Assembly: GCA_045576595.1 (NCBI GenBank)
Contig: JAZNGV010000031.1
Span: 13,903-77,902, forward strand
Source: Paludibacteraceae bacterium
Lineage (GTDB): Bacteria > Bacteroidota > Bacteroidia > Bacteroidales > Paludibacteraceae
DNA: 64,000 bases
Direction of reading: 5' to 3'
Part shown: one piece after another, positions 20,630-31,601 of the stretch
How the letters are laid out: the number at the start of each line of letters is the position of its first letter
Position numbering within the stretch: position 1 is the first letter of the stretch
Made by a program: the position numbers and the translations under genes
Notes under the pieces: generated by a model
Databases searched by the model: none
The model's input: only the letters and a program-made list of their open reading frames with translations
What the model was told of the DNA's origin: nothing

Positions 20630-21895
20630 ATGAAAAAAGTATTAGTCGTAGGTGGCGGTGGACGAGAGCATGCTATCGTGCATGCGCTCTCGTGTAGCGT
20701 GAAAGTGGAGAAAATATACTGCGCACCAGGTAATGCAGGTATAGCACAACTCGCAGAGTGCGTGGCTATCAAAGATACCGATGTGGAGGGGTTGCTTCTC
20801 TTCGCCAAAGAGACAGAAGTGGACCTAACCGTTGTAGGACCAGAAGCAGCACTCGCCGCAGGCGTGGTGGACGCTTTCCGTGCCGAAGGAATGCCTATCT
20901 TCGGGCACACCAAAGCAGCTACACAGATTGAGTCCAGCAAGGAGTTTGCGAAAATCATCATGCAGAAATACCATGTGCCTACTGCTGCCTATCAGTCCTT
21001 CAGCGATTATGAAGAGGCATTAGCATATGTGCAGGCAGGACGATTGCCTATTGTGCTCAAATACGATGGACTAGCGGCTGGCAAAGGAGTGGTGATAGCC
21101 AATACCCTTGAAGAAGCAGACACTGCCCTGCAAGATATGCTATGCAATGAAGCATTTGGCAAAGGAAAAGTGGTGGTGGAGGAATACCTCGAGGGACCTG
21201 AGTTCTCTTTCATGTGTTTTGTGAACGGAGAGAAGGTTTATCCAATGCCTCTCTCGCAAGACCATAAGCGCGCATACGACAACGATGAAGGACCGAACAC
21301 AGGCGGTATGGGCGCCTATACACCGCTGCCTTTCGTGACCGAAGAAGACGAAGCGTTTGCAAAGAAGTATATCCTTGAGGCAGTAGCCAAAGGCATGTGT
21401 GCCGAAGGATTACCACTCACAGGTGTGCTCTATGGTGGACTGATGAAGACAGCACAAGGTATCAAAGTGATTGAGTTCAATGCACGCTTTGGTGACCCGG
21501 AAACCGAAGTCGTTCTTCCGCTCCTTGAGTCTGATGCCTACGATGTATTCTACGGCATTGCAACAAACACACTCCCCTACAAGAAAGAGCAGGGTGGAGG
21601 CTTGTCATGGCGTAACGAAGCCACAATAGGCGTGGTACTTGCATCCAAAGGTTATCCGGGAGATTATACCAAAGGTGCGGTGATTGAAGGCACAGAGGTC
21701 TTTGATGGTCCTATCTTCCATATGGGTACGCAGAACGAGAACGGGGTGCTGAAAACCAATGGCGGACGCGTAATGATGTGCATTGCTACAGGCAAAGATA
21801 TTAGTGCCGCACGCGAGAAAGTATATAACGAAATGGAGAAAATCCAATGCTCAAACCTCTTCTACCGCAAAGATATCGCCCACTGGGCGCTTTAA
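20630..21895 (+). CDS. purD: Phosphoribosylamine--glycine ligase
   Basis: MKKVLVVGGGGREHAIVHAL..., ATP-grasp core and VIEFNARFGDPETEV motif; 421 aa. Confidence 0.93.
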   Translation: MKKVLVVGGGGREHAIVHALSCSVKVEKIYCAPGNAGIAQLAECVAIKDTDVEGLLLFAKETEVDLTVVGPEAALAAGVVDAFRAEGMPIFGHTKAATQIESSKEFAKIIMQKYHVPTAAYQSFSDYEEALAYVQAGRLPIVLKYDGLAAGKGVVIANTLEEADTALQDMLCNEAFGKGKVVVEEYLEGPEFSFMCFVNGEKVYPMPLSQDHKRAYDNDEGPNTGGMGAYTPLPFVTEEDEAFAKKYILEAVAKGMCAEGLPLTGVLYGGLMKTAQGIKVIEFNARFGDPETEVVLPLLESDAYDVFYGIATNTLPYKKEQGGGLSWRNEATIGVVLASKGYPGDYTKGAVIEGTEVFDGPIFHMGTQNENGVLKTNGGRVMMCIATGKDISAAREKVYNEMEKIQCSNLFYRKDIAHWAL

Positions 21896-22021: not shown

Positions 22022-22873
22022 ATGATAATCGACGGAAAACAAATTTCGCAGTCCCTCAAGGATGCGATGAAAATAGAAGTAGAAGCACTGGAAGCGCAGT
22101 ATGGTCGCCGTCCATGCTTGATGGTCATTATTGTAGGCAACAATCCTGCCAGCCGTTCCTATGTAACAGGTAAGATCAAAGCCACCGAGTACTGCGGTTT
22201 TGATGGACACCTCGTGGAACTGCCAGAAGATGTGAGCGAAGCAACACTCCTGGCAGAGATAGATAAACTCAATAACGATAATCAAGTGGATGGAATATTG
22301 GTGCAACTACCTTTGCCTAAACATATCTCCGAGGATAAGGTCATCGCTGCTATCTCTGCAGAGAAAGATGTGGATGGTTTTCACCCGGAGAATGTGGCAC
22401 GCTTGTGGCTCAACCAACACTGCATCCTCCCATGCACCCCAAAAGGTATCATCGAACTCCTCGACCAAGCGGGCGTGGAGATAGCAGGCAAGAAAGCAGT
22501 TGTCATCGGTCGCAGTAATATAGTGGGTAAGCCTGTTTCTAAACTGCTGCTCGACCGCAATGCTACGGTTACTATTGCGCATAGCCGCACCAAGGACCTC
22601 GCTGCTGTATGCCGTGAAGCAGATATCTTAGTGGCTGCCGTAGGACGCGCCAAGATGGTGACGGCAGAGTTTGTCAAACCCGGTGCAGCGGTAATAGATG
22701 TGGGTATCAACCGCACCGAGGCAGGTAAATTGGTGGGCGATGTGGATTATGAGGCAGTATTGCCTATTGCTGGCGCTATCACCCCTGTGCCAGGCGGTGT
22801 AGGACCCATGACCATCACCATGCTCATGCGTAATACGATTGAGTGCTTTATTAATAGAATGAATAAGTTATAA
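22022..22873 (+). CDS. folD: Bifunctional methylenetetrahydrofolate dehydrogenase/cyclohydrolase
   Basis: 283 aa; VGNNPASRSYV, DGILVQLPLP, DVDGFHP and GRSNIVGKP motifs. Confidence 0.93.
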   Translation: MIIDGKQISQSLKDAMKIEVEALEAQYGRRPCLMVIIVGNNPASRSYVTGKIKATEYCGFDGHLVELPEDVSEATLLAEIDKLNNDNQVDGILVQLPLPKHISEDKVIAAISAEKDVDGFHPENVARLWLNQHCILPCTPKGIIELLDQAGVEIAGKKAVVIGRSNIVGKPVSKLLLDRNATVTIAHSRTKDLAAVCREADILVAAVGRAKMVTAEFVKPGAAVIDVGINRTEAGKLVGDVDYEAVLPIAGAITPVPGGVGPMTITMLMRNTIECFINRMNKL

Positions 22874-22885
22874 TAGTATATTTTC

Positions 22886-23353
22886 ATGAATTTCGGTACT
22901 CCCCTTACTTCTGTGGCTACTAAGGCGTTATTGCTTGGAAGTGGCGAATTGGGCAAAGAAGTAGCCCTCGAACTCCAGCGTTATGGCGTGGAAGTTATTG
23001 CGTGCGATAAGTACGCCAATGCGCCAGCTATGCAAGTGGCACATCGTAGTCATGTTTTCAATATGCTGGACGGTACTAAGCTTCGTCAAGTGATTGAAAC
23101 AGAACAACCATCATTGATTATCCCTGAAGTAGAAGCTATTGCTACCCCTACTCTCGTCGAATTAGAAAAAGAAGGTTACCGCGTTATCCCTACGGCTAAC
23201 GCGGCTTTTTTAACTATGAACCGTGAGGCCATCCGCCGTATGGCAGCCGAAGAGTTGGGTCTGCCCACCGATGAAAATACTGAAAAAGCCGTAGCGAAAG
23301 CTATTGAGGCTTTTGACCAACTTAAAGTCGCAGGCGAATTAAAGTTGGTGTGA
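22886..23353 (+). pseudogene. purT: purT remnant (formate-dependent GAR transformylase) with large in-frame internal deletion
   Basis: 155 aa. The N-terminal ~125 aa match PurT ([43 protein letters not shown]...[19 protein letters not shown]). They are joined directly to a PurT-like extreme C-terminus ([16 protein letters not shown]). The ATP-grasp core is absent. Confidence 0.7.
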
Positions 23354-23478: not shown

Positions 23479-24771
23479 ATGATTGAACGTTACAGCCGCG
23501 CAGTCATGCGCAACATTTGGACAGAAGAGAATAAGTTCAATGCTTATCTCGAAGTAGAAATCTTGGCTGCTGAGGCGTGGAGCACCTTGGGTGTTATCCC
23601 AGCAGAAGATGTACAACTCTTGCGTGAGAAAGCTACATTCAATATCGACCGCATCCACGAGATAGAAGAAATCACTCGTCACGATATCGTTGCTTTCACC
23701 CGCACAGTGAGCGAGTCGTTAGGCGAAGAGAAAAAATGGGTACACTACGGACTTACCTCTACCGACATAGTGGATACCGCGAATGGATATTTGCTCAAGC
23801 AAGCCAATGAGGTGTTGCGCAAAGATTTGCACTCTTTCTTGGAAGTGTTGAAGCGCCGCGCGAATGAGTTCAAATACACACCTGTTATCGGTCGTACCCA
23901 CGGCATGCACGCCGATGTGAGCAGTTTTGGTCTCAAGTGGGCATTATGGTACGAAGAGATGCGCCGTAACTTAGAGCGCTTCGAGATGGCAGCCAAAGGT
24001 GTAGAGGCAGGTAAATTGTCTGGCGCGGTAGGTAACTACGCGAATATCCCACCAGCAATCCAAACCTATGTATGCGAGCACCTTGGCATTGAGTCGGCTG
24101 CGATAGCCACACAAGTGTTGGGTCGCGACCGCCATGCCTTCTACTTGGCTACGCTTGCAGTTATCGCCGGTACGCTTGAGCAAATGGCATTGGAGGTACG
24201 TAATATGCAGCGCCAAGAAGTGCGTGAAGTGGAAGAAGCTTTCCGCAAGGGACAGAAAGGTTCTTCGGCTATGCCACATAAGCGCAACCCTATTTCATCG
24301 GAGAATATTTGCGGTTGTGCGCGAGTGATGCGCGGATACATGTGTACTGCGAGCGAGAACATCGCCTTGTGGCACGAGCGTGACATATCCCATTCCTCTA
24401 CAGAACGCATCGTGCTGCCTGACGCAACCATGCTGCTCGATTATATGTTGGCACGCTTCGAGGGCATCCTCGATAACCTCGTAGTTTATCCAGAGAATAT
24501 GCTTCGCAATATTGGTCTCACCCACGGAGCTATCTTCGCACAGCGAGTGATGAATGCACTGATAGAGAAGGGTTTTGTGCGTGAGCAAGCATATGACCTC
24601 GTACAACCTGTGGCAATGAAGACGCTGATGGAAGGTGGCGAGATGCAAGAAAATCTCAAACTCACCGAAAGTGTGACAGCACATCTGAGCAACGAGGAGA
24701 TTGACGCATGCTTTAGTTTGGATTATTACATGAAGAATGTAGATTATATCTTCCAGCAAGTAGGTATCTAA
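23479..24771 (+). CDS. purB: Adenylosuccinate lyase
   Basis: MIERYSR..MRNIWTEENKF..., GLTSTDIVDTA and SSAMPHKRNP signature. Start moved to 23479 because the track start reads through the REP element. Confidence 0.92.
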   Translation: MIERYSRAVMRNIWTEENKFNAYLEVEILAAEAWSTLGVIPAEDVQLLREKATFNIDRIHEIEEITRHDIVAFTRTVSESLGEEKKWVHYGLTSTDIVDTANGYLLKQANEVLRKDLHSFLEVLKRRANEFKYTPVIGRTHGMHADVSSFGLKWALWYEEMRRNLERFEMAAKGVEAGKLSGAVGNYANIPPAIQTYVCEHLGIESAAIATQVLGRDRHAFYLATLAVIAGTLEQMALEVRNMQRQEVREVEEAFRKGQKGSSAMPHKRNPISSENICGCARVMRGYMCTASENIALWHERDISHSSTERIVLPDATMLLDYMLARFEGILDNLVVYPENMLRNIGLTHGAIFAQRVMNALIEKGFVREQAYDLVQPVAMKTLMEGGEMQENLKLTESVTAHLSNEEIDACFSLDYYMKNVDYIFQQVGI

Positions 24772-24774
24772 CCA

Positions 24775-24830
24775 CTAATCGCTAATCACTAATCGCTAAT
24801 CGCTAATCACTAATCACTAAACGCTAAACA
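24775..24830 (+). repeat. Tandem heptamer array (ctaatcR x8)
   Basis: ctaatcg ctaatca ctaatcg ctaatcg ctaatca ctaatca ctaaacg ctaaaca, starting 4 nt after the purB stop. Confidence 0.9.
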
Positions 24831-24845
24831 TAAATACAATAATAT

Positions 24846-25919
24846 ATGTCAAAAGTGACCTTGAAATTATCTGATGGTACATGCTTCGAAGGTGTATCTA
24901 TCGGGTATGAGAAAAATGTAACGGGAGAGGTGGTATTTAATACCACAATGATAGGTTATCCGGAAGTGCTGACCGATGCAGGCGCGCGAGGACAAATAGT
25001 AGTGATGACCTATCCGCTCATTGGTAACTATGGAGTGCCTGCATGCAGCGAACAAGAGAATGGTCTATCCGATTATCTGGATAGCAATGCTATTCACCCT
25101 GCGGCACTCATCATGACGGAATATAGTCCTGAGTACTCGCACTGGAATGCGAATGAGAGCCTCGCTCAATGGCTCATCCGCGAACAGATACCAGCCGTTA
25201 TGGGGATAGACACACGCGCCCTAACCAAACATCTGCGCGAAAAGGGGAGTATGCAAGCCACACTCTTTTTTGAGAACGATAACACGCTTCCAAAAGCGAA
25301 TGAAGAACATCTTGTGGCGCAAGTCAGTTGTACCCAACCCATCACCTATAACAGCGGTGCAGGGAAGAAAGTGGTACTCGTCGATTGTGGCGTGAAGCAA
25401 AGTATCATTCGCTATCTCATTGGGCGTGGCGTAGAAGTGATACGCGTGCCATGGGATTATGATTTCAATACACTCACCTTTGACGCACTTATCATCTCCA
25501 ATGGTCCGGGAAAACCTGAAGAATGCCAGCCAACTATCAATAACATACGGACTTTCCTTGCCAAAGGCGAAGATAAACCATTATTGGGATTGGATTTAGG
25601 CAACCAACTCCTCGCCCTCGCGGTGGGAGCGAAAGTGTCTAAGCATAAATATGGTCACCACGGTGCTACCCAACCTGTGCAACTTGCCAATGAGAAACGC
25701 TGTTTCATCACTGCGCAGAACCATGGTTATGTTGTAGAGGGTGATACCTTACCCGCTGAATGGAGGGAGTGGTTTATTAATATGAATGACAATACCAATG
25801 AGGGTATTCGTCACAACCAAAAACCATGGATGGCAGTTCAGTTCATACCGGAAATGAATTGCGGACCCATTGACACAGAGTTTGTATTCAATAACTTTAT
25901 CGAAATTCTTAATAAATAA
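24846..25919 (+). CDS. carA: Carbamoyl-phosphate synthase small-subunit homologue lacking the glutaminase Cys and His
   Basis: N-domain GEVVFNTTMIGYPEVLTD is typical of CarA. GLDLGNQ replaces GICLGHQ (Asp codon 25593-25595). VQFIPE replaces FQGHPE (Ile codon 25845-25847). Confidence 0.85.
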   Translation: MSKVTLKLSDGTCFEGVSIGYEKNVTGEVVFNTTMIGYPEVLTDAGARGQIVVMTYPLIGNYGVPACSEQENGLSDYLDSNAIHPAALIMTEYSPEYSHWNANESLAQWLIREQIPAVMGIDTRALTKHLREKGSMQATLFFENDNTLPKANEEHLVAQVSCTQPITYNSGAGKKVVLVDCGVKQSIIRYLIGRGVEVIRVPWDYDFNTLTFDALIISNGPGKPEECQPTINNIRTFLAKGEDKPLLGLDLGNQLLALAVGAKVSKHKYGHHGATQPVQLANEKRCFITAQNHGYVVEGDTLPAEWREWFINMNDNTNEGIRHNQKPWMAVQFIPEMNCGPIDTEFVFNNFIEILNK

Positions 25920-25924
25920 CAACC

Positions 25925-28900
25925 ATGGAGAAGAAAGAGATTAAGAAAGTGTTAGTGCTCGGTTCAGGAGCACTCAAAATTGGCGAAGCAGGTGAGTTTG
26001 ATTATTCGGGTTCACAAGCACTCAAAGCATTGCGCGAAGAGGGTATATACACGGTACTCATCAATCCGAATATCGCAACTGTTCAGACCAGCGAAGGAGT
26101 AGCAGACAAGATCTATTTCCTCCCGGTCAATCCATTCTTCGTGGAGCGTGTTATTAAGAAGGAGCGCCCCGATGGTATCCTCCTCGCTTTTGGTGGACAG
26201 ACAGCCCTCAACTGTGGTGTGGAATTGTACAAGACAGGTGTATTAGAGAAATATAATGTACAGGTATTGGGTACACCCGTACAAGCCATCATGGATACTG
26301 AGGACCGCGAACTATTCGTGGAGAAACTGGATGAGATAAATGTAAAGACTATCCAAAGCGAAGCCTGCGAGACTATTGAGGCAGCACGCGCTGCAGCGAA
26401 AGCACTGGGTTATCCTGTCATCCTACGCGCTGCGTATGCATTAGGTGGACTCGGTTCGGGTTTCTGCGATAATGAAGAAGAACTGAATAAACTCGCAGAG
26501 AAAGCCTTCTCGTTCTCACCACAAGTGCTTGTAGAGAAATCACTCAAAGGATGGAAAGAGATTGAATATGAGGTAGTGCGCGATAAATATGACAACTGTA
26601 TTACCGTATGTAATATGGAGAACTTTGACCCGCTTGGTATTCACACAGGAGAGTCTATCGTCATCGCTCCAACCCAAACGCTCACCAAATCCGAGGCATC
26701 CAAACTGCGTGCACTCGCTATCAAGATAGTGCGCCATGTGGGCATCGTGGGTGAGTGTAATGTGCAATACGCCCTCGACCCCAATTCAGAGGACTATCGT
26801 GTCATCGAGGTCAATGCACGCTTGTCACGCTCATCGGCACTCGCATCCAAAGCAACAGGTTATCCACTCGCTTTCGTGGCTGCCAAGATAGCACTCGGGT
26901 ACGGTTTGTTTGAACTGACAAACTCGGTTACAAAGAATACGCCAGCTTTCTTCGAACCTACACTCGATTATATTGTAGCCAAACTGCCACGCTGGGATTT
27001 GGGTAAGTTCCGCGGAGTGGATAGAGAGATAGGTTCATCTATGAAATCCGTAGGTGAAGTGATGGCTATCGGTCGCACTTTTGAGGATACTATTCAGAAG
27101 GGGCTTCGTATGATAGGCCAAGGCATGCATGGATTTACTGAGAATAAAACTCTTCATGTTGATGACCTTGACCACGCACTCGCAGCGCCCACCGACAAGC
27201 GTATATTCTTTATCTCACAAGCATTGCGCGAGGGATACACGATTGACCGTCTGCACGAACTGACCAAGATAGACCGTTGGTTCCTCGAAAAACTGCAGAA
27301 TATATGCCGCACCGACGCAGAGTTGCAAGCCGTTTCCAATATGCAATCCCTCAGTGCTGACCTCTTGCGCAAGGCGAAGATACAAGGTTTCTCTGACTTC
27401 CAAATAGCGAAGGCGATTGGTTTGGGCGAACAGATGGATATGGACCTGGCTGTGCAAGTAGCACGCAAATATCGTCAGTCATTGGGCATCAATCCAGTGG
27501 TGAAGCAGATAGATACACTCGCCGCAGAATTCCCTGCGCAAACCAATTATCTCTATCTCACTTATTCGGGTACAGAGCACGATATAGAATATGTCAATGA
27601 CCGCAAATCGGTAGTAGTACTCGGTTCGGGTGCGTACCGTATTGGCTCTTCGGTAGAGTTCGACTGGTGCGGCGTACAAGCCCTCAAAACCATCCGCGAG
27701 AATGGTTACCGCTCCGTCATGATCAACTATAACCCAGAAACGGTCTCTACCGATTACGACATGTGCGATCGCCTCTATTTTGACGAACTCACTTTCGAGC
27801 GCGTCATGGATATCTTGGAATTGGAGAATCCACACGGAGTGATCGTTTCTACAGGTGGACAGATACCGAATAACCTTGCCCTCAAACTTGATGCGCAGCG
27901 TATGCCTATCTTGGGTACTACCGCGCGCTCTATCGATAACGCTGAGGACCGAGATAAGTTCTCTGCTATGCTTGACCGAATTGGTGTGGACCAACCCGAA
28001 TGGAGCGCACTTACCTCAATGGAAGATGTGAAAGCTTTCGTAGACAAAGTGGGATTCCCAGTACTCGTACGCCCATCGTATGTGCTCTCAGGAGCAGCGA
28101 TGAATGTGTGCTTCAATCAGGACGAACTGGACCGCTTCCTCAAACTCGCTTCTACTGTCAGCAAGAAGCACCCAGTGGTCATCTCTAAGTTTATGCTTAA
28201 TACCAAAGAGGTGGAGATGGACGCAGTGGCAAAAGATGGAGAAATCATCGCTTATGCTATCTCCGAGCATGTGGAGTTCGCGGGTGTACACTCAGGTGAC
28301 GCCACTATCCAGTTCCCTGCGCAGAAACTATATGTGGAGACAGTACGCCGTATTAAGAAAATTTCCGGACAGATTGCACGCGAACTCAAGATATCTGGTC
28401 CATTCAATATTCAGTACTTGGCCCGTGATAACGAAATCAAGGTTATCGAGTGCAACCTCCGTGCGTCGCGTTCCTTCCCATTTGTGTCGAAAGTACTCAA
28501 GATTAACTTCATCGATATCGCTACGCGTATCATGCTTGGTTTACCAGTGGAGAAACCAAATAAGTCGCTCTTTGACTTTGACTATGTAGGTGTTAAGGCT
28601 TCGCAGTTCTCTTTCAACCGTTTGCAGAAGGCTGATCCAGTAATCGGTGTGGATATGACATCCACTGGCGAGGTAGGATGCTTAGGTGAGGACGCTAATG
28701 CTGCCCTTCTTACCTCAATGCTCTCTGTCGGAATGCGTGTGCCAAAGAAGAATGTACTCTTCTCTATCGGTTCGCCCAAACAGAAAGCACAGATGTTGGA
28801 AGCAGCGCGCCAACTCATCGCTAAGGGCTATAATATCTATGCTACGCAAGGAACAAGCAATTTCCTGAACGAAGCGAATGTGCCTAACACAGTGGTTTAT

Positions 28901-29152
28901 CAGCCATCTGAACAGGGTACACCACAAGCTATTGACCTCATGCGTGATGGAACGATTGAGTTCGTGGTGAGTGTACCAAAGGATATTGTGACCGACCCAC
29001 AACACGATGTGTGCTATCATGTGCGCCGTGCGGCTATTGACCTCAATGTACCTCTGCTCACGAATGCACGCCTCGCATCAGCATTCATCAATGCTTTCTG
29101 TACAATAGATATAGACCAACTCGCTATTCAATCATGGGACGAATATAAATAA
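25925..29152 (+). CDS. carB: Carbamoyl-phosphate synthase large subunit
   Basis: 1075 aa with duplicated ATP-grasp halves ([24 protein letters not shown] / [21 protein letters not shown]) and a C-terminal MGS-like domain. Confidence 0.95.
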
Positions 29153-29163
29153 ACTCATACTAT

Positions 29164-30111
29164 ATGAACGCTTTAACTTCAACAAACTTCAATTTTCCTG
29201 GTCAGAAACAAGTATATAATGGCAAGGTACGCGATGTGTACTTCATTGGTGATGACCAATTAGTTATGGTTGCTACAGACCGTATATCTGCTTTTGATGT
29301 AATCTTACCAAAAGGTATTCCTTTCAAGGGACAGATACTCAACCAGATTGCCGCTAAGTTCCTGGATGCTACAACGGATATCGTTCCTAACTGGAAACAA
29401 GCCACACCAGACCCAATGGTTACCATAGGTATCCGCTGCGAGGGTTATCCTATTGAGATGATTGTCCGCGGCTATCTGTGCGGTTCAGCATGGCGTGCCT
29501 ATAAGAGCGGCGTGCGCGAGATATGCGGTGTAGCGCTTCCTGAAGGAATGCGCGAGAATGAGCAGTTCCCTACACCTATCATCACCCCTACTACAAAGGC
29601 AGAGATTGGCGCGCATGACGAAGATATCTCTCGTGAGCAAATAATCAGCCAAGGACTCGTGTCCGAAGCAGAGTATGCACAGTTGGAGAAATACGCACTC
29701 GCACTCTTCCAAAGAGGACAAGAGATAGCTGCCAAACAAGGACTTATCCTCGTTGATACCAAGTATGAGTTTGGTAAAAATGGAGAACAAATCATCCTCA
29801 TGGATGAGGTGCATACCCCTGACTCAAGCCGCTATTTCTATGCCGATGAGTACGAAGAGCGTTTCCAAGCAGGACTACCACAAAAGCAGTTATCAAAGGA
29901 GTTCGTACGCGAATGGTTGATAGAGAATGGTTTCCAAGGCAAAGAGGGACAGCAAGTGCCTGAGATGACAGACGAAGTGGTAGCAGGTATTACTGACCGC
30001 TATATGGAGTTGTATGAGTGTATTACAGGCGAGAAACTTGTTATTGATGCCTCTTCCCAAGACCTCACCGCTCGCATTGAGAACAATGTGAATAACTATC
30101 TAACCCGATAA
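29164..30111 (+). CDS. purC: Phosphoribosylaminoimidazole-succinocarboxamide synthase (long form)
   Basis: 315 aa; [16 protein letters not shown] and [10 protein letters not shown] motifs. Confidence 0.9.
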
Positions 30112-30123
30112 CCACTACTCATT

Positions 30124-31548
30124 ATGGCTGGTTTTTTTGGAACTGTCTCAACAACCTCTTGCGTAACGGATGTTTTCTATGGCACCGATTATCATAGCCA
30201 TCTCGGTACACGCCGAGCTGGTATGGCTACTTTCGACCACGAGAAAGGATTCAAACGCAGTATTCATAATATACAAAATTCCTATTTCCGTACGAAATTC
30301 GAAGATGAATTAGACGAGTTTGCAGGAAACGCAGGTATCGGAATTATCTCAGATACAGATGCGCAACCGCTGCTTATCAATTCCCACCTTGGGCGCTTTG
30401 CTATCAGTACGGTAGGCAAAATAAATAATCTGGACGAACTGGTTAATCATCTTCTATCCCAGAATATGCACCTCACGGAGTTTAGTAGCGGTCGTGTCAA
30501 CCCTACTGAGTTGGTGGGACTGCTCATCGTGCAAGGCAAGGATTTCGTGGATGGAATAGAGTATATGTTCCGCCAGATAAAAGGCTCTTGCAGTGTACTC
30601 ATTCTAACCGAAGATGGGATTATCGCCGCCCGTGATGCATGGGGACGAACACCTATCGTGGTGGGTAAGAAAGATAATGCTTACGCGGTGGCCAGCGAGT
30701 CCTCATCGTTCTACAACCTGGGTTTTCAAACGGAGTATTTCCTTGGCCCGGGTGAGATAGTACGCATTCGTGCTAACCATATGGAGCAGTTACGCAAACC
30801 CAATGAGAAAATGCAAATTTGTTCTTTCTTGTGGGTTTATTATGGTTTCCCAACCTCCGATTACGAAGGGCGTAATGTGGAAGATGTGCGTAATGAATGT
30901 GGCCGAGCAATGGGAGCAAACGATGATGTGGAGGTGGATTGCGTGTGCGGCATACCGGACTCAGGTATCGGCATGGCTATCGGCTATGCACAGACTTCTG
31001 GCGTTCCTTATGCGCGCGCTATCACCAAATATACGCCTACATGGCCACGCTCCTTCACTCCCTCTCAACAGGCTACGCGTGAGTTAGTGGCGAAGATGAA
31101 ACTCATCCACAACTCCTCTCTGCTGAGAGGTAAACGCGTCCTTTTCTGTGACGACTCCATTGTGCGTGGCACACAACTGCGTGATAACACACGCTGCTTA
31201 CTCGAGTCGGGCGCCAAGGAGGTACATATGCGTATCGCATGTCCGCCTATTATGTACGGATGTCCGTTCACGAATTTCACCACTTCTAAATCCGACCTTG
31301 AACTCATCACACGCCGTTTTATTGCGGAGTTTGAGGGTATAGACGCGGCTAATGACCCAGAGCGAATAAAAGCGTATGCTGTTACTGACTCACCTGAGTA
31401 TCAGCGACTCATGGGAGCAATCAGAGACCGATTCGCTCTCAAATCACTCAAATATACCAAGATTGAAGACCTCATCGCTTCCATCGGACTACCTAAATGC
31501 CAAGTGTGCACTTACTGCTTTGATGGCGAGACACCTAAGGAAGAATAG
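30124..31548 (+). CDS. Amidophosphoribosyltransferase-like protein lacking the N-terminal Cys nucleophile
   Basis: PRTase region VLFCDDSIVRGTQL and overall PurF-like layout. The N-terminus is MAGFFG instead of MCG(I/V)(V/F)G. Confidence 0.65.
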   Translation: MAGFFGTVSTTSCVTDVFYGTDYHSHLGTRRAGMATFDHEKGFKRSIHNIQNSYFRTKFEDELDEFAGNAGIGIISDTDAQPLLINSHLGRFAISTVGKINNLDELVNHLLSQNMHLTEFSSGRVNPTELVGLLIVQGKDFVDGIEYMFRQIKGSCSVLILTEDGIIAARDAWGRTPIVVGKKDNAYAVASESSSFYNLGFQTEYFLGPGEIVRIRANHMEQLRKPNEKMQICSFLWVYYGFPTSDYEGRNVEDVRNECGRAMGANDDVEVDCVCGIPDSGIGMAIGYAQTSGVPYARAITKYTPTWPRSFTPSQQATRELVAKMKLIHNSSLLRGKRVLFCDDSIVRGTQLRDNTRCLLESGAKEVHMRIACPPIMYGCPFTNFTTSKSDLELITRRFIAEFEGIDAANDPERIKAYAVTDSPEYQRLMGAIRDRFALKSLKYTKIEDLIASIGLPKCQVCTYCFDGETPKEE

Positions 31549-31570
31549 AGCAGAAACTAACTAAAAAAAA

Positions 31571-31594
31571 ACAGAGCCTCACACGAGGCTCTGT
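31571..31594. terminator. Bidirectional terminator between purF-like and rubredoxin genes
   Basis: acagagcctc-acac-gaggctctgt: 10-bp stem flanked by A9 and T-rich runs. Confidence 0.8.
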
Positions 31595-31601
31595 TTTCTT
31601 T

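What the first reader, a model, noticed from the sequence alone, without database searches (positions are those of the whole stretch)
24846..25919. CarA homologue without the glutaminase catalytic Cys and His
Seen by hand alignment to E. coli CarA:
- FGICLGHQLLALA corresponds to LGLDLGNQLLALA. Cys269 becomes Asp (codon 25593-25595), and the adjacent His becomes Asn.
- FSFQGHPEASPGP corresponds to MAVQFIPEMNCGP. His353 becomes Ile (codon 25845-25847), and Glu355 is kept.
- The rest of the protein, including the CarB-interaction N-domain, is well conserved, and carB follows 6 nt downstream.

Established: Cys269/His353/Glu355 form the triad that hydrolyses glutamine. Ammonia-dependent CPS I of vertebrates has an inactive glutaminase-like domain.

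Inference: this may be a bacterial CPS that uses free ammonia, with CarA kept as a structural or allosteric subunit. That would make sense in an ammonia-rich gut, oral or rumen habitat.
Basis: partly seen in the sequence, partly recalled or inferred. Interest (0 to 1): 0.6.

Follow-up and report, generated by a model that had tools for sequence, protein, structure and literature searches.

The report
Glutaminase-dead CarA in sole CPS
A hindgut Bacteroidales bacterium keeps a strongly conserved small subunit of its only carbamoyl-phosphate synthase even though that subunit can no longer split glutamine, so the enzyme most likely runs on free ammonia, which the literature I could search has not shown for a bacterial CarAB.

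Summary
Computed alignments put Asp at E. coli Cys269 (codon 25593-25595) and Ile at His353 (25845-25847). Glu355 is kept, and the oxyanion residue Ser47 is also lost.

This is not an error or a pseudogene:
- The same losses occur in all 15 species-level Paludibacteraceae MAGs of one subclade (ruminant colon, cecum and faeces). All 65 more distant relatives checked keep Ser/Cys/His/Glu.
- dN/dS within the subclade is 0.05-0.11.

This carA is the only one in a 100%-complete genome. No carbamate kinase was found, and pyrB, pyrF and an argF-like gene are kept. Genus members without carA also lack pyrB and pyrF. CarB is almost unchanged (8 of 621 conserved columns replaced).

The same subclade has a GuaA whose glutaminase domain is truncated, and no CTP synthase was found in it. 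No GOGAT was found in any genus genome sampled, Amt in only one, and GDH in all.

Best reading (about 0.75): an ammonia-dependent CarAB with CarA kept as a non-catalytic subunit. No assay exists.

His272Asn is ancestral in Bacteroidales and is not part of the inactivation.

This scan has noted glutaminase-dead CarA before in other phyla. I found no paper describing one in bacteria.

The parts
24846..25919 (+). carA homologue (357 aa) without glutaminase catalytic residues. CPSase small-chain N-domain plus a class-I GATase-like domain.
   Evidence: TIGR01368 391.7 bits; PF00988 and PF00117 full length. AlphaFold model pLDDT 85.5; TM 0.93 to the human CPS1 N-terminal moiety and 0.87-0.88 to E. 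coli CarA.
24978..24989 (+). Residues 45-48 (AGAR), replacing the conserved P-S-Y-A loop. The Ser47 equivalent (oxyanion/glutamine site) is Gly.
   Evidence: this column is S in 14/14 intact relatives and G or N in 8/8 triad-less. One search gives the same for 15 against 65 genomes.
25593..25595 (+). GAT = Asp250 at the position of the nucleophile Cys269.
   Evidence: Sister species have Gly here, so no conserved substitute nucleophile exists.
25845..25847 (+). ATA = Ile334 at the position of the general base His353.
   Evidence: Ile in all 15 clade genomes; Val in one metagenomic cluster.
25851..25853 (+). GAA = Glu336, the retained Glu355 equivalent.
25925..29152 (+). carB, complete large (synthetase) subunit, 1075 aa, starting 5 nt after the carA stop.
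   Evidence: TIGR01369 1536.9 bits. It is the only full-length carB in the genome. Only 8 of 621 conserved columns are replaced in the triad-less clade. It is 75% identical to a carA-linked CarB and 64% to a second, CarB2-like copy in a Bacteroides-labelled genome.
20630..21895 (+). purD, first gene of the co-directional block.
   Evidence: TIGR00877 501 bits.
22022..22873 (+). folD.
22886..23353 (+). purT remnant. Only the first ~130 of ~390 residues are present.
   Evidence: NF006766 matches profile positions 3-131 of 396, below cut-off.
23479..24771 (+). purB (adenylosuccinate lyase).
   Evidence: TIGR00928 519 bits, starting at residue 44 of the ORF that begins at 23350.
29164..30111 (+). 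purC.
   Evidence: NF009251 494.9 bits.
30124..31548 (+). PurF-like amidophosphoribosyltransferase starting MAGFFG (Cys1 replaced by Ala). It is the only PurF homologue in the genome.
   Evidence: TIGR01134 196.5 bits, below the 350 cut-off. The MAGFFG/MGGFFG start also occurs in relatives with intact CarA. phmmer finds no paralogue.
31568..31597 (+). Strong hairpin plus T-run, the likely end of the purD...purF-like transcription unit. It is bidirectional with pnp on the minus strand.
   Evidence: 13-pair stem. It is the only strong + strand terminator-like site between 20000 and 32200.

Best explanation
The window encodes the organism's only carbamoyl-phosphate synthase, a CarA-CarB pair. CarA has lost the nucleophile Cys, the general base His and the oxyanion Ser, so it cannot hydrolyse glutamine.

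Inferred: CarB makes carbamoyl phosphate from bicarbonate, 2 ATP and free NH3 taken from an ammonia-rich hindgut. CarA is kept as a non-catalytic partner. It may stabilise or activate CarB, and it may still supply the first half of the ammonia path. Ammonia could enter through the emptied glutamine pocket, where the Gly293-equivalent tunnel position is a small Ala. It could also enter through a CPS1-like side entrance, whose residues Glu82 and His142 are conserved here as Glu40 and His99.

The loss happened once inside one genus. The same genomes have a GuaA with a truncated glutaminase domain and no detectable CTP synthase, so the lineage seems to have shifted nucleotide synthesis from glutamine to free ammonia.

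Shown: the residue losses, uniqueness of the gene, purifying selection, retention of downstream genes, and the co-losses. Inferred: ammonia as substrate, the role of CarA, and the entry path.
For: - Residue losses by computed alignment, fixed in 15 of 15 clade genomes against 0 of 65 outside it.
- Only one carA and one carB in a 100%-complete genome. No arcC.
- dN/dS within the clade is 0.045-0.11 overall and 0.03-0.175 in the GATase-like half. Intact CarA gives 0.04-0.07.
- The fold is predicted intact: pLDDT 85.5, TM 0.93 to the human CPS1 N-terminal moiety.
- CarB is essentially unchanged: 8 of 621 conserved columns, all conservative. Gate residues Cys229, Ala248 and Ala307 are present (read with PMC4655335).
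- pyrB and pyrF occur in all 7 genomes of the triad-less subclade and in 4 of the 5 genus genomes with intact carA (not found in 68%-complete G218). Neither was found in the 9 genomes without carA (one weak sub-cut-off pyrF hit in G217).
- Among genus genomes where both genes were found, GuaA is truncated at the nucleophile elbow wherever CarA is triad-less and full length wherever CarA is intact.
- PyrG was not found in 7 of 7 subclade genomes and was found in 11 of 14 others.
- No GOGAT was found in any of the 21 genus genomes, Amt in only one, and GDH in all.
- Precedents from papers: isolated bacterial CarB works with ammonium, and CPS1 has an inactive glutaminase-like domain (PMC8121099, PMC4655335).
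Against: - No biochemical, genetic or expression data exist.
- From my own knowledge, E. coli CPS has a poor apparent affinity for ammonia. The 8 CarB replacements are conservative and show no obvious adaptation.
- Several glutamine-pocket residues are kept (Gly241, Gly243, Gln273, Asn311, His312, Gly313). The pocket may therefore still bind a ligand, and CarA may do more than scaffold.
- PurL, GlmS and an AsnB-like enzyme keep their catalytic Cys, so the lineage has not given up glutamine as a donor in general.
- How CTP is made without PyrG is unexplained.
Confidence: 0.75

Rival explanations
1. CarA is a functionless relic. CarB alone is the enzyme, as proposed for the orphan CarB2 of B. 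thetaiotaomicron, and carA is on its way to being lost.
For: CarA is the fastest-evolving gene of the operon: 75-94% identity within the clade against 93-99% for CarB. Isolated bacterial CarB is active with ammonium, and an orphan CarB2 is proposed to work alone (PMC8121099). Model confidence is lowest in the remodelled active-site loops.
Against: The full-length ORF is kept in 15 species-level genomes with dN/dS of 0.045-0.11, in the GATase-like half as well. The tight 5-nt carA-carB junction is kept. No frameshifts or truncations were seen in the complete genes; two loci are cut by a contig end.
Confidence: 0.1
2. CarA has become a ligand sensor. The retained part of the glutamine pocket still binds glutamine or a related metabolite and allosterically tunes an ammonia-using CarB. 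This is a refinement of the best explanation rather than an alternative to ammonia use.
For: Gly241, Gly243, Gln273 (7 of 8), Asn311, His312, Gly313 and Glu355 equivalents are kept while the chemistry residues are lost. Purifying selection acts on the GATase-like half. From my own knowledge, E. coli Cys269 mutants still bind glutamine, and this stimulates the large subunit's partial reactions.
Against: The Ser47 loop and the His loop that close the pocket are remodelled and are predicted with low confidence. No direct evidence of binding exists.
Confidence: 0.1
3. CarA still releases ammonia from an amide donor using different catalytic residues, for example Asp250 as nucleophile.
For: Asp occupies the nucleophile position in this genome.
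Against: In 12 of the 15 named clade genomes, and in most metagenomic clusters, this position is Gly, so it is not a conserved nucleophile. The general base and the oxyanion Ser are also gone.
Confidence: 0.03
4. Artefact: hand-alignment error, sequencing or assembly error, or a pseudogene in one MAG.
For: The genome is a 45-contig assembly.
Against: Three alignment methods agree. The same state is found in independent assemblies from different animals and studies, and in about 1,900 member sequences of metagenomic clusters.
Confidence: 0.01

Closest known systems
Vertebrate mitochondrial carbamoyl-phosphate synthetase I (human CPS1, PDB 5DOT/5DOU)
   Same: - It has a glutaminase-like domain of the same fold that lacks the catalytic Cys, joined to a complete synthetase that uses free ammonia.
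- CPS1 is the best sequence and structure match: 352.9 bits and TM 0.93, against 206 bits and TM 0.87-0.88 for E. coli CarA.
- Ser47 is lost in both.
- The proposed CPS1 side-entrance residues Glu82 and His142 are conserved as Glu40 and His99 (PMC4655335).
   Different: - Here there are two separate genes, not one 1500-residue chain.
- Cys is replaced by Asp or Gly, not Ser.
- His353 is also lost here; CPS1 keeps His and Glu.
- The tunnel-blocking Gln318 of CPS1 (E. coli Gly293 position) is a small Ala here.
- N-acetylglutamate dependence is unknown.
- The loss is independent and recent, inside one bacterial genus.
E. coli CarA-CarB (glutamine-dependent CPS, PDB 1JDB, 1A9X; C269S mutant 1C30)
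   Same: Heterodimeric gene pair with the same domain order. CarB is complete with conserved gate residues. Engineered Cys269 or His353 mutants are the laboratory equivalent of this natural protein.
   Different: The natural protein lacks Cys269, His353 and Ser47. It is only about 35% identical to E. coli CarA. It belongs to the eukaryote-like Bacteroidales lineage with Asn at His272.
Orphan CarB2 (BT3866) of Bacteroides thetaiotaomicron, proposed ammonium-dependent CPS (Liu et al. 2021, PMC8121099)
   Same: A Bacteroidales solution for making carbamoyl phosphate directly from ammonium when ammonium is plentiful.
   Different: CarB2 has no CarA partner and coexists with a glutamine-dependent CarAB. 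Here the single CarB is the orthologue of the carA-linked CarB (75% against 64% identity) and keeps a dead CarA. No second CPS exists.
Other triad-less CarA homologues in metagenomes
   Same: About 20 of the 150 nearest 50%-identity representatives lack the Cys, mostly as Gly and often without the His. They include a Porphyromonadaceae MAG, Candidatus Egerieousia equi, Treponemataceae MAGs, a rotifer and a euglenid. A tree needs at least 7 independent changes of triad state. Earlier notes of this scan report the same in Omnitrophota, Margulisbacteria-type bacteria and Clostridia.
   Different: These are separate lineages. Some of those noted earlier are second copies beside a normal CPS. Here it is the only CPS, and intact sister species in the same genus give a before-and-after comparison.

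Membership tests
CarA / CPSase small subunit (TIGR01368; PF00988 + PF00117) | Profile score above the curated cut-off over the full length | tested here: met
   391.7 bits against a 307.35 cut-off, positions 2-360 of 361. PF00988 matches 1-125 of 126 and PF00117 1-189 of 190.
CarA / CPSase small subunit (TIGR01368; PF00988 + PF00117) | Encoded next to and co-directional with a complete carB | tested here: met
   carB starts 5 nt after the carA stop. The synteny is conserved in relatives.
CarA / CPSase small subunit (TIGR01368; PF00988 + PF00117) | Glutamine-hydrolysing activity (the family name is 'glutamine-hydrolyzing') | not testable with these tools
   Activity cannot be assayed here. The residues needed for it are absent (see the next family).
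Class-I (triad) glutamine amidotransferase, as an active enzyme | Nucleophile Cys in the G-x-C-x-G elbow | tested here: not met
   GLDLG here; Asp or Gly in all clade members.
Class-I (triad) glutamine amidotransferase, as an active enzyme | General-base His two residues before the Glu (H-P-E) | tested here: not met
   I-P-E here; Ile in 15 of 15 clade genomes.
Class-I (triad) glutamine amidotransferase, as an active enzyme | alpha/beta GATase fold | tested here: met
   AlphaFold model with TM 0.87-0.93 to CarA and CPS1 structures.
CPS I (EC 6.3.4.16, ammonia-dependent, vertebrate type) | Glutaminase-like domain lacking the catalytic Cys | tested here: met
CPS I (EC 6.3.4.16, ammonia-dependent, vertebrate type) | Single polypeptide joining the small and large moieties | tested here: not met
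   There is a stop codon at 25917-25919, and carB is in another frame.
CPS I (EC 6.3.4.16, ammonia-dependent, vertebrate type) | Obligatory activation by N-acetylglutamate | not testable with these tools
   The MGS-like C-terminal domain is present (PF02142). Ligand dependence cannot be inferred from that.
CPS I (EC 6.3.4.16, ammonia-dependent, vertebrate type) | Free ammonia as the physiological nitrogen donor | not testable with these tools
   Inferred from a sole CPS with a dead glutaminase and retained downstream genes.
Orphan CarB2-type CPS of Bacteroides | carB without an adjacent carA, and closer in sequence to CarB2 than to the carA-linked CarB | tested here: not met
   carA is adjacent. 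The window's CarB is 75% identical to the carA-linked copy and 64% to the second copy.

The most novel reading that the evidence does not exclude
A hindgut Paludibacteraceae lineage has rewired nucleotide and arginine precursor synthesis to draw nitrogen directly from free ammonia.
- Its only CPS has a dead CarA.
- Its GMP synthetase has lost the glutaminase domain.
- Its only PurF homologue lacks Cys1.
- CTP synthase is gone.

CarA would persist as an ammonia entry and tunnel subunit, or as a ligand-sensing subunit. This would be one of many convergent cases, making ammonia-dependent CarAB an unrecognised but common bacterial enzyme class that annotation pipelines mislabel as 'glutamine-hydrolyzing'.
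Probability: 0.5. Interest if true: 0.75.

Novelty: new variant of a known kind. Interest (0 to 1): 0.62.

Why it matters
A 2021 functional-genetics paper states that all eubacterial CPSs characterised so far are glutamine dependent (PMC8121099). The only proposed bacterial exception I found in the literature is an orphan CarB2.

A CarAB pair with a conserved dead glutaminase would be the bacterial counterpart of animal CPS I. Here it arose recently enough that intact sister species allow a direct before-and-after comparison.

It would also show that ammonia-rich gut habitats can select for removing the glutamine step from several amidotransferases at once.

In practice, annotation pipelines name these proteins 'glutamine-hydrolyzing'. 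Metabolic models of gut and rumen communities built on those names would misassign the nitrogen donor.

Tried and rejected
- **Hand-alignment error:** rejected by MAFFT and HMMER alignments.
- **Sequencing error or pseudogene:** rejected by 15 independent species-level genomes and by dN/dS.
- **Second canonical carA, separate GATase subunit, or carbamate kinase in the genome:** none found.
- **Asp250 as a replacement nucleophile:** rejected, because most clade members have Gly.
- **His272Asn as part of the inactivation:** rejected, because it is shared by all intact Bacteroidales CarA.
- **The window's CarB being a CarB2-type orphan synthetase:** rejected.
- **The distant CarA type of four other genera of the family (35-40% identity) being triad-less as well:** checked in 16 genomes, and all are intact.
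- **Adaptive changes in CarB's ammonia tunnel:** only 8 conservative replacements were found, none at the gate residues. This gives no support either way.
- **Expression and habitat from sequencing runs:** Habitat therefore rests on MAG record names only.
- **Literature:** five searches found no description of a bacterial triad-less CarA.
- **Not done:** I did not look up genomic contexts of the independent triad-less lineages, because the look-up tool does not accept proteins from that source.

Full report
**The observation**

The ORF at 24846-25919 (+) encodes a 357-aa protein. It scores 391.7 bits on the CarA model TIGR01368 (cut-off 307.35). It matches the CPSase small-chain domain and the class-I GATase domain over their whole lengths.

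A MAFFT alignment with E. coli CarA and 120 database homologues, two further alignments, and HMMER alignments to PDB chains all agree:
- Asp250 (GAT, 25593-25595) sits at Cys269.
- Asn253 sits at His272.
- Ile334 (ATA, 25845-25847) sits at His353.
- Glu336 sits at Glu355. The DNA was read.

carB (25925-29152) follows a 5-nt spacer.

Two things need correcting. The Asn at His272 is present in every Bacteroidales CarA that keeps the Cys (motif GICMGNQ), so it is ancestral and unrelated to the inactivation. A third active-site residue, Ser47, is also gone: the conserved P-S-Y-A loop reads A-G-A-R here.

**It is real and under selection**

A scan of species-level genomes returned 15 loci at 75-94% identity. 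All carry (Gly/Asn)-(Asp/Gly)-Ile-Glu at the Ser47, Cys269, His353 and Glu355 positions. All 65 loci at 53-57% identity carry Ser-Cys-His-Glu.

Most of the 15 are labelled Paludibacteraceae MAGs; three are labelled only Bacteroidales and one Alistipes sp. Their record names point to sheep colon, roe-deer colon, yak cecum, water-buffalo cecum and faeces.

Metagenomic clusters with the same state hold about 1,900 member sequences.

Pairwise dN/dS inside the clade is 0.045-0.11 overall and 0.03-0.175 for the GATase-like half. Intact CarA of sister species gives 0.04-0.07.

An AlphaFold model is confident (pLDDT 85.5). It superposes on the human CPS1 N-terminal moiety at TM 0.93 and on E. coli CarA at TM 0.87-0.88. 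Confidence dips only at the remodelled active-site loops.

**A recent, single loss inside one genus**

In the window's genus some species have the triad-less CarA, some an intact one, and some no carA at all.

| Comparison | Identity |
|---|---|
| Intact CarAs within the genus | 68-93% |
| Triad-less CarA to any intact CarA | 54-60% |
| N-terminal half of CarB between the two groups | 82-86% |

Across the operon, CarA is the outlier. Against one intact relative (L106), purB is 93% identical, carB 80%, purC 80%, the PurF-like gene 77% and carA 56%.

Of 152 columns invariant in intact relatives, 26 are replaced in all triad-less sequences. They cluster at the Ser47 loop, the nucleophile elbow, positions 274-275 and the His loop.

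In CarB only 8 of 621 conserved columns are replaced, all conservatively. The tunnel gate residues are kept (gate residues as named in PMC4655335).

Gly is one base change from both Cys and Asp. Gly was therefore probably the first replacement, and the Asp of this genome came later.

**The enzyme must still work**

The genome is 100% complete by marker genes. It has one carA, one full-length carB, no other PF00117 domain and no carbamate kinase. It keeps pyrB, pyrF and an argF-like transcarbamylase.

Across 21 genomes of the genus:
- pyrB and pyrF are present in all seven genomes of the triad-less subclade. In two of these (83% and 85% complete) carA itself was not found.
- They are present in four of the five genomes with intact carA. 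They were not found in the fifth, which is 68% complete.
- The nine genomes without carA lack both, apart from one weak pyrF hit below the cut-off.

So in this genus, loss of CPS is followed by loss of the pathway. The triad-less lineage has kept the pathway, which argues that its CPS delivers carbamoyl phosphate. With no glutaminase, the nitrogen must come from free ammonia. This last step is inference.

**Context: a wider move away from glutamine**

- **GuaA:** in the triad-less subclade GuaA is 422 aa. Its GATase domain stops at the nucleophile elbow (PVLHIAKGEQ where sister species have PILGICYGAQ). About 100 residues, including the His and Glu, are deleted. Species with intact CarA have full-length GuaA.
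- **PyrG:** CTP synthase was not found in any of the seven subclade genomes, including ones 100%, 99% and 96% complete. It was found in 11 of 14 other genus genomes.
- **PurF:** the only PurF homologue starts MAGFFG, without Cys1. This state is older, because relatives with intact CarA share it.
- **Ammonium assimilation:** no GOGAT was found in any of the 21 genus genomes, Amt in only one, and glutamate dehydrogenase in all. This fits life at high ammonia.
- **The shift is not total:** PurL, GlmS and an AsnB-like enzyme keep their catalytic Cys, and a type-III glutamine synthetase is present.

**Mechanism and rivals**

Best reading (about 0.75): an ammonia-dependent CarAB in which CarA is a non-catalytic partner.

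What CarA does is open:
- It may stabilise or activate CarB.
- It may still form the ammonia path. The position that blocks the old tunnel in CPS1 (Gln318, E. coli Gly293) is His in intact relatives and a small Ala in the triad-less clade.
- Alternatively, the residues at the proposed CPS1 side entrance (Glu82, His142) are conserved here as Glu40 and His99 (PMC4655335).
- Several glutamine-pocket residues are kept, so a ligand-sensing role is possible (about 0.1).

A functionless relic (about 0.1) is hard to square with the dN/dS values. A new nucleophile is unlikely because the position varies between Asp and Gly. An artefact is excluded.

**Comparison with what is known**

The closest analogue is vertebrate CPS I. 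CPS1 is also the best sequence and structure match. That partly reflects the general likeness of Bacteroidales CPS to eukaryotic CPS.

It is not a member of that family. It has two genes, a different replacement of the Cys, and has lost the His as well. It has no tunnel-blocking Gln, and the loss arose independently.

It also differs from the orphan CarB2 that Liu et al. (PMC8121099) proposed as an ammonium-dependent CPS in B. thetaiotaomicron. The window's CarB is the orthologue of the carA-linked copy. That paper states that all eubacterial CPSs characterised to date are glutamine dependent. My searches found no later report of a triad-less bacterial CarA.

The phenomenon is not unique, however:
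- About 20 of the 150 nearest 50%-identity representatives lack the Cys. They include other Bacteroidales, Treponemataceae and some eukaryotes.
- A tree needs at least 7 independent changes of triad state.
- Earlier unchecked notes of this scan describe the same in Omnitrophota, Margulisbacteria-type bacteria and Clostridia.

**Verdict**

It has not been tested biochemically. This is a new bacterial variant of a known kind (CPS with a dead glutaminase). It is notable for being the sole CPS of its genome, and for the clean within-genus contrast with parallel loss of the GuaA glutaminase domain and of PyrG.

Noticed in passing
G000 contig C8:18699-19964 (outside the window): GuaA (GMP synthetase) is 422 aa. 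Its glutaminase domain is cut off at the nucleophile elbow (PVLHIAKGEQ instead of PILGICYGAQ), and about 100 residues including the His and Glu are missing. Among genus genomes where both genes were found, this co-occurs exactly with the triad-less CarA. It probably marks an ammonia-dependent GMP synthetase.
   Followed up: yes
whole genome G000 and sister genomes G207, G208, G210, G212, G213, G214: No CTP synthase (PF06418, TIGR00337) was found in any genome of the triad-less subclade, although it is present in 11 of 14 other genomes of the genus. How these bacteria obtain CTP is unexplained. Salvage or an unknown enzyme are possibilities.
   Followed up: partly
window 30124-31548: The PurF-like amidophosphoribosyltransferase starts MAGFFG (Cys1 replaced by Ala) and scores below the purF cut-off. 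It is the only PurF homologue in a genome that has purD, purB, purC and purL. The same start (MAGFFG or MGGFFG) occurs in relatives with intact CarA, so this state is older and wider than the CarA loss.
   Followed up: partly
window 22886-23353: A purT remnant lies between folD and purB. Only the first ~130 of ~390 residues of formate-dependent GAR transformylase are present.
   Followed up: no
loci L013, L015, L017-L032, L035 (family relatives): In many Paludibacteraceae genomes carA and carB lie in one open frame of about 1450 aa, a fused CPS like the eukaryotic enzymes. In the window they are separate genes in different frames.
   Followed up: partly
window 24846-29152: Bacteroidales CarA and CarB are closer to human CPS1 than to E. 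coli CarAB. CarA scores 352.9 against 206 bits; a 221-residue stretch of CarB scores 366.5 against 308.6 bits. In the tree, vertebrate CPS1 groups near the Bacteroidales sequences with weak support.
   Followed up: partly
window 24768-24827: A tandem heptamer array (CTAATCR, about 7.6 copies) fills most of the 74-nt spacer between the purB stop and the carA start.
   Followed up: no
genus-wide (G201-G220): No GOGAT was found in any of 21 genus genomes, an Amt transporter in only one, and GDH in all. Nine genomes lack carA, pyrB, pyrF and guaA together, so they look like nucleotide and arginine auxotrophs.
   Followed up: partly
locus record titles (L094, L099, L122): Several contigs that clearly carry Bacteroidales carAB operons are labelled Acidaminococcaceae, Lactococcus garvieae or Christensenellaceae in their records ('cleanbin' assemblies). 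These are probably mislabelled or contaminated bins.
   Followed up: no
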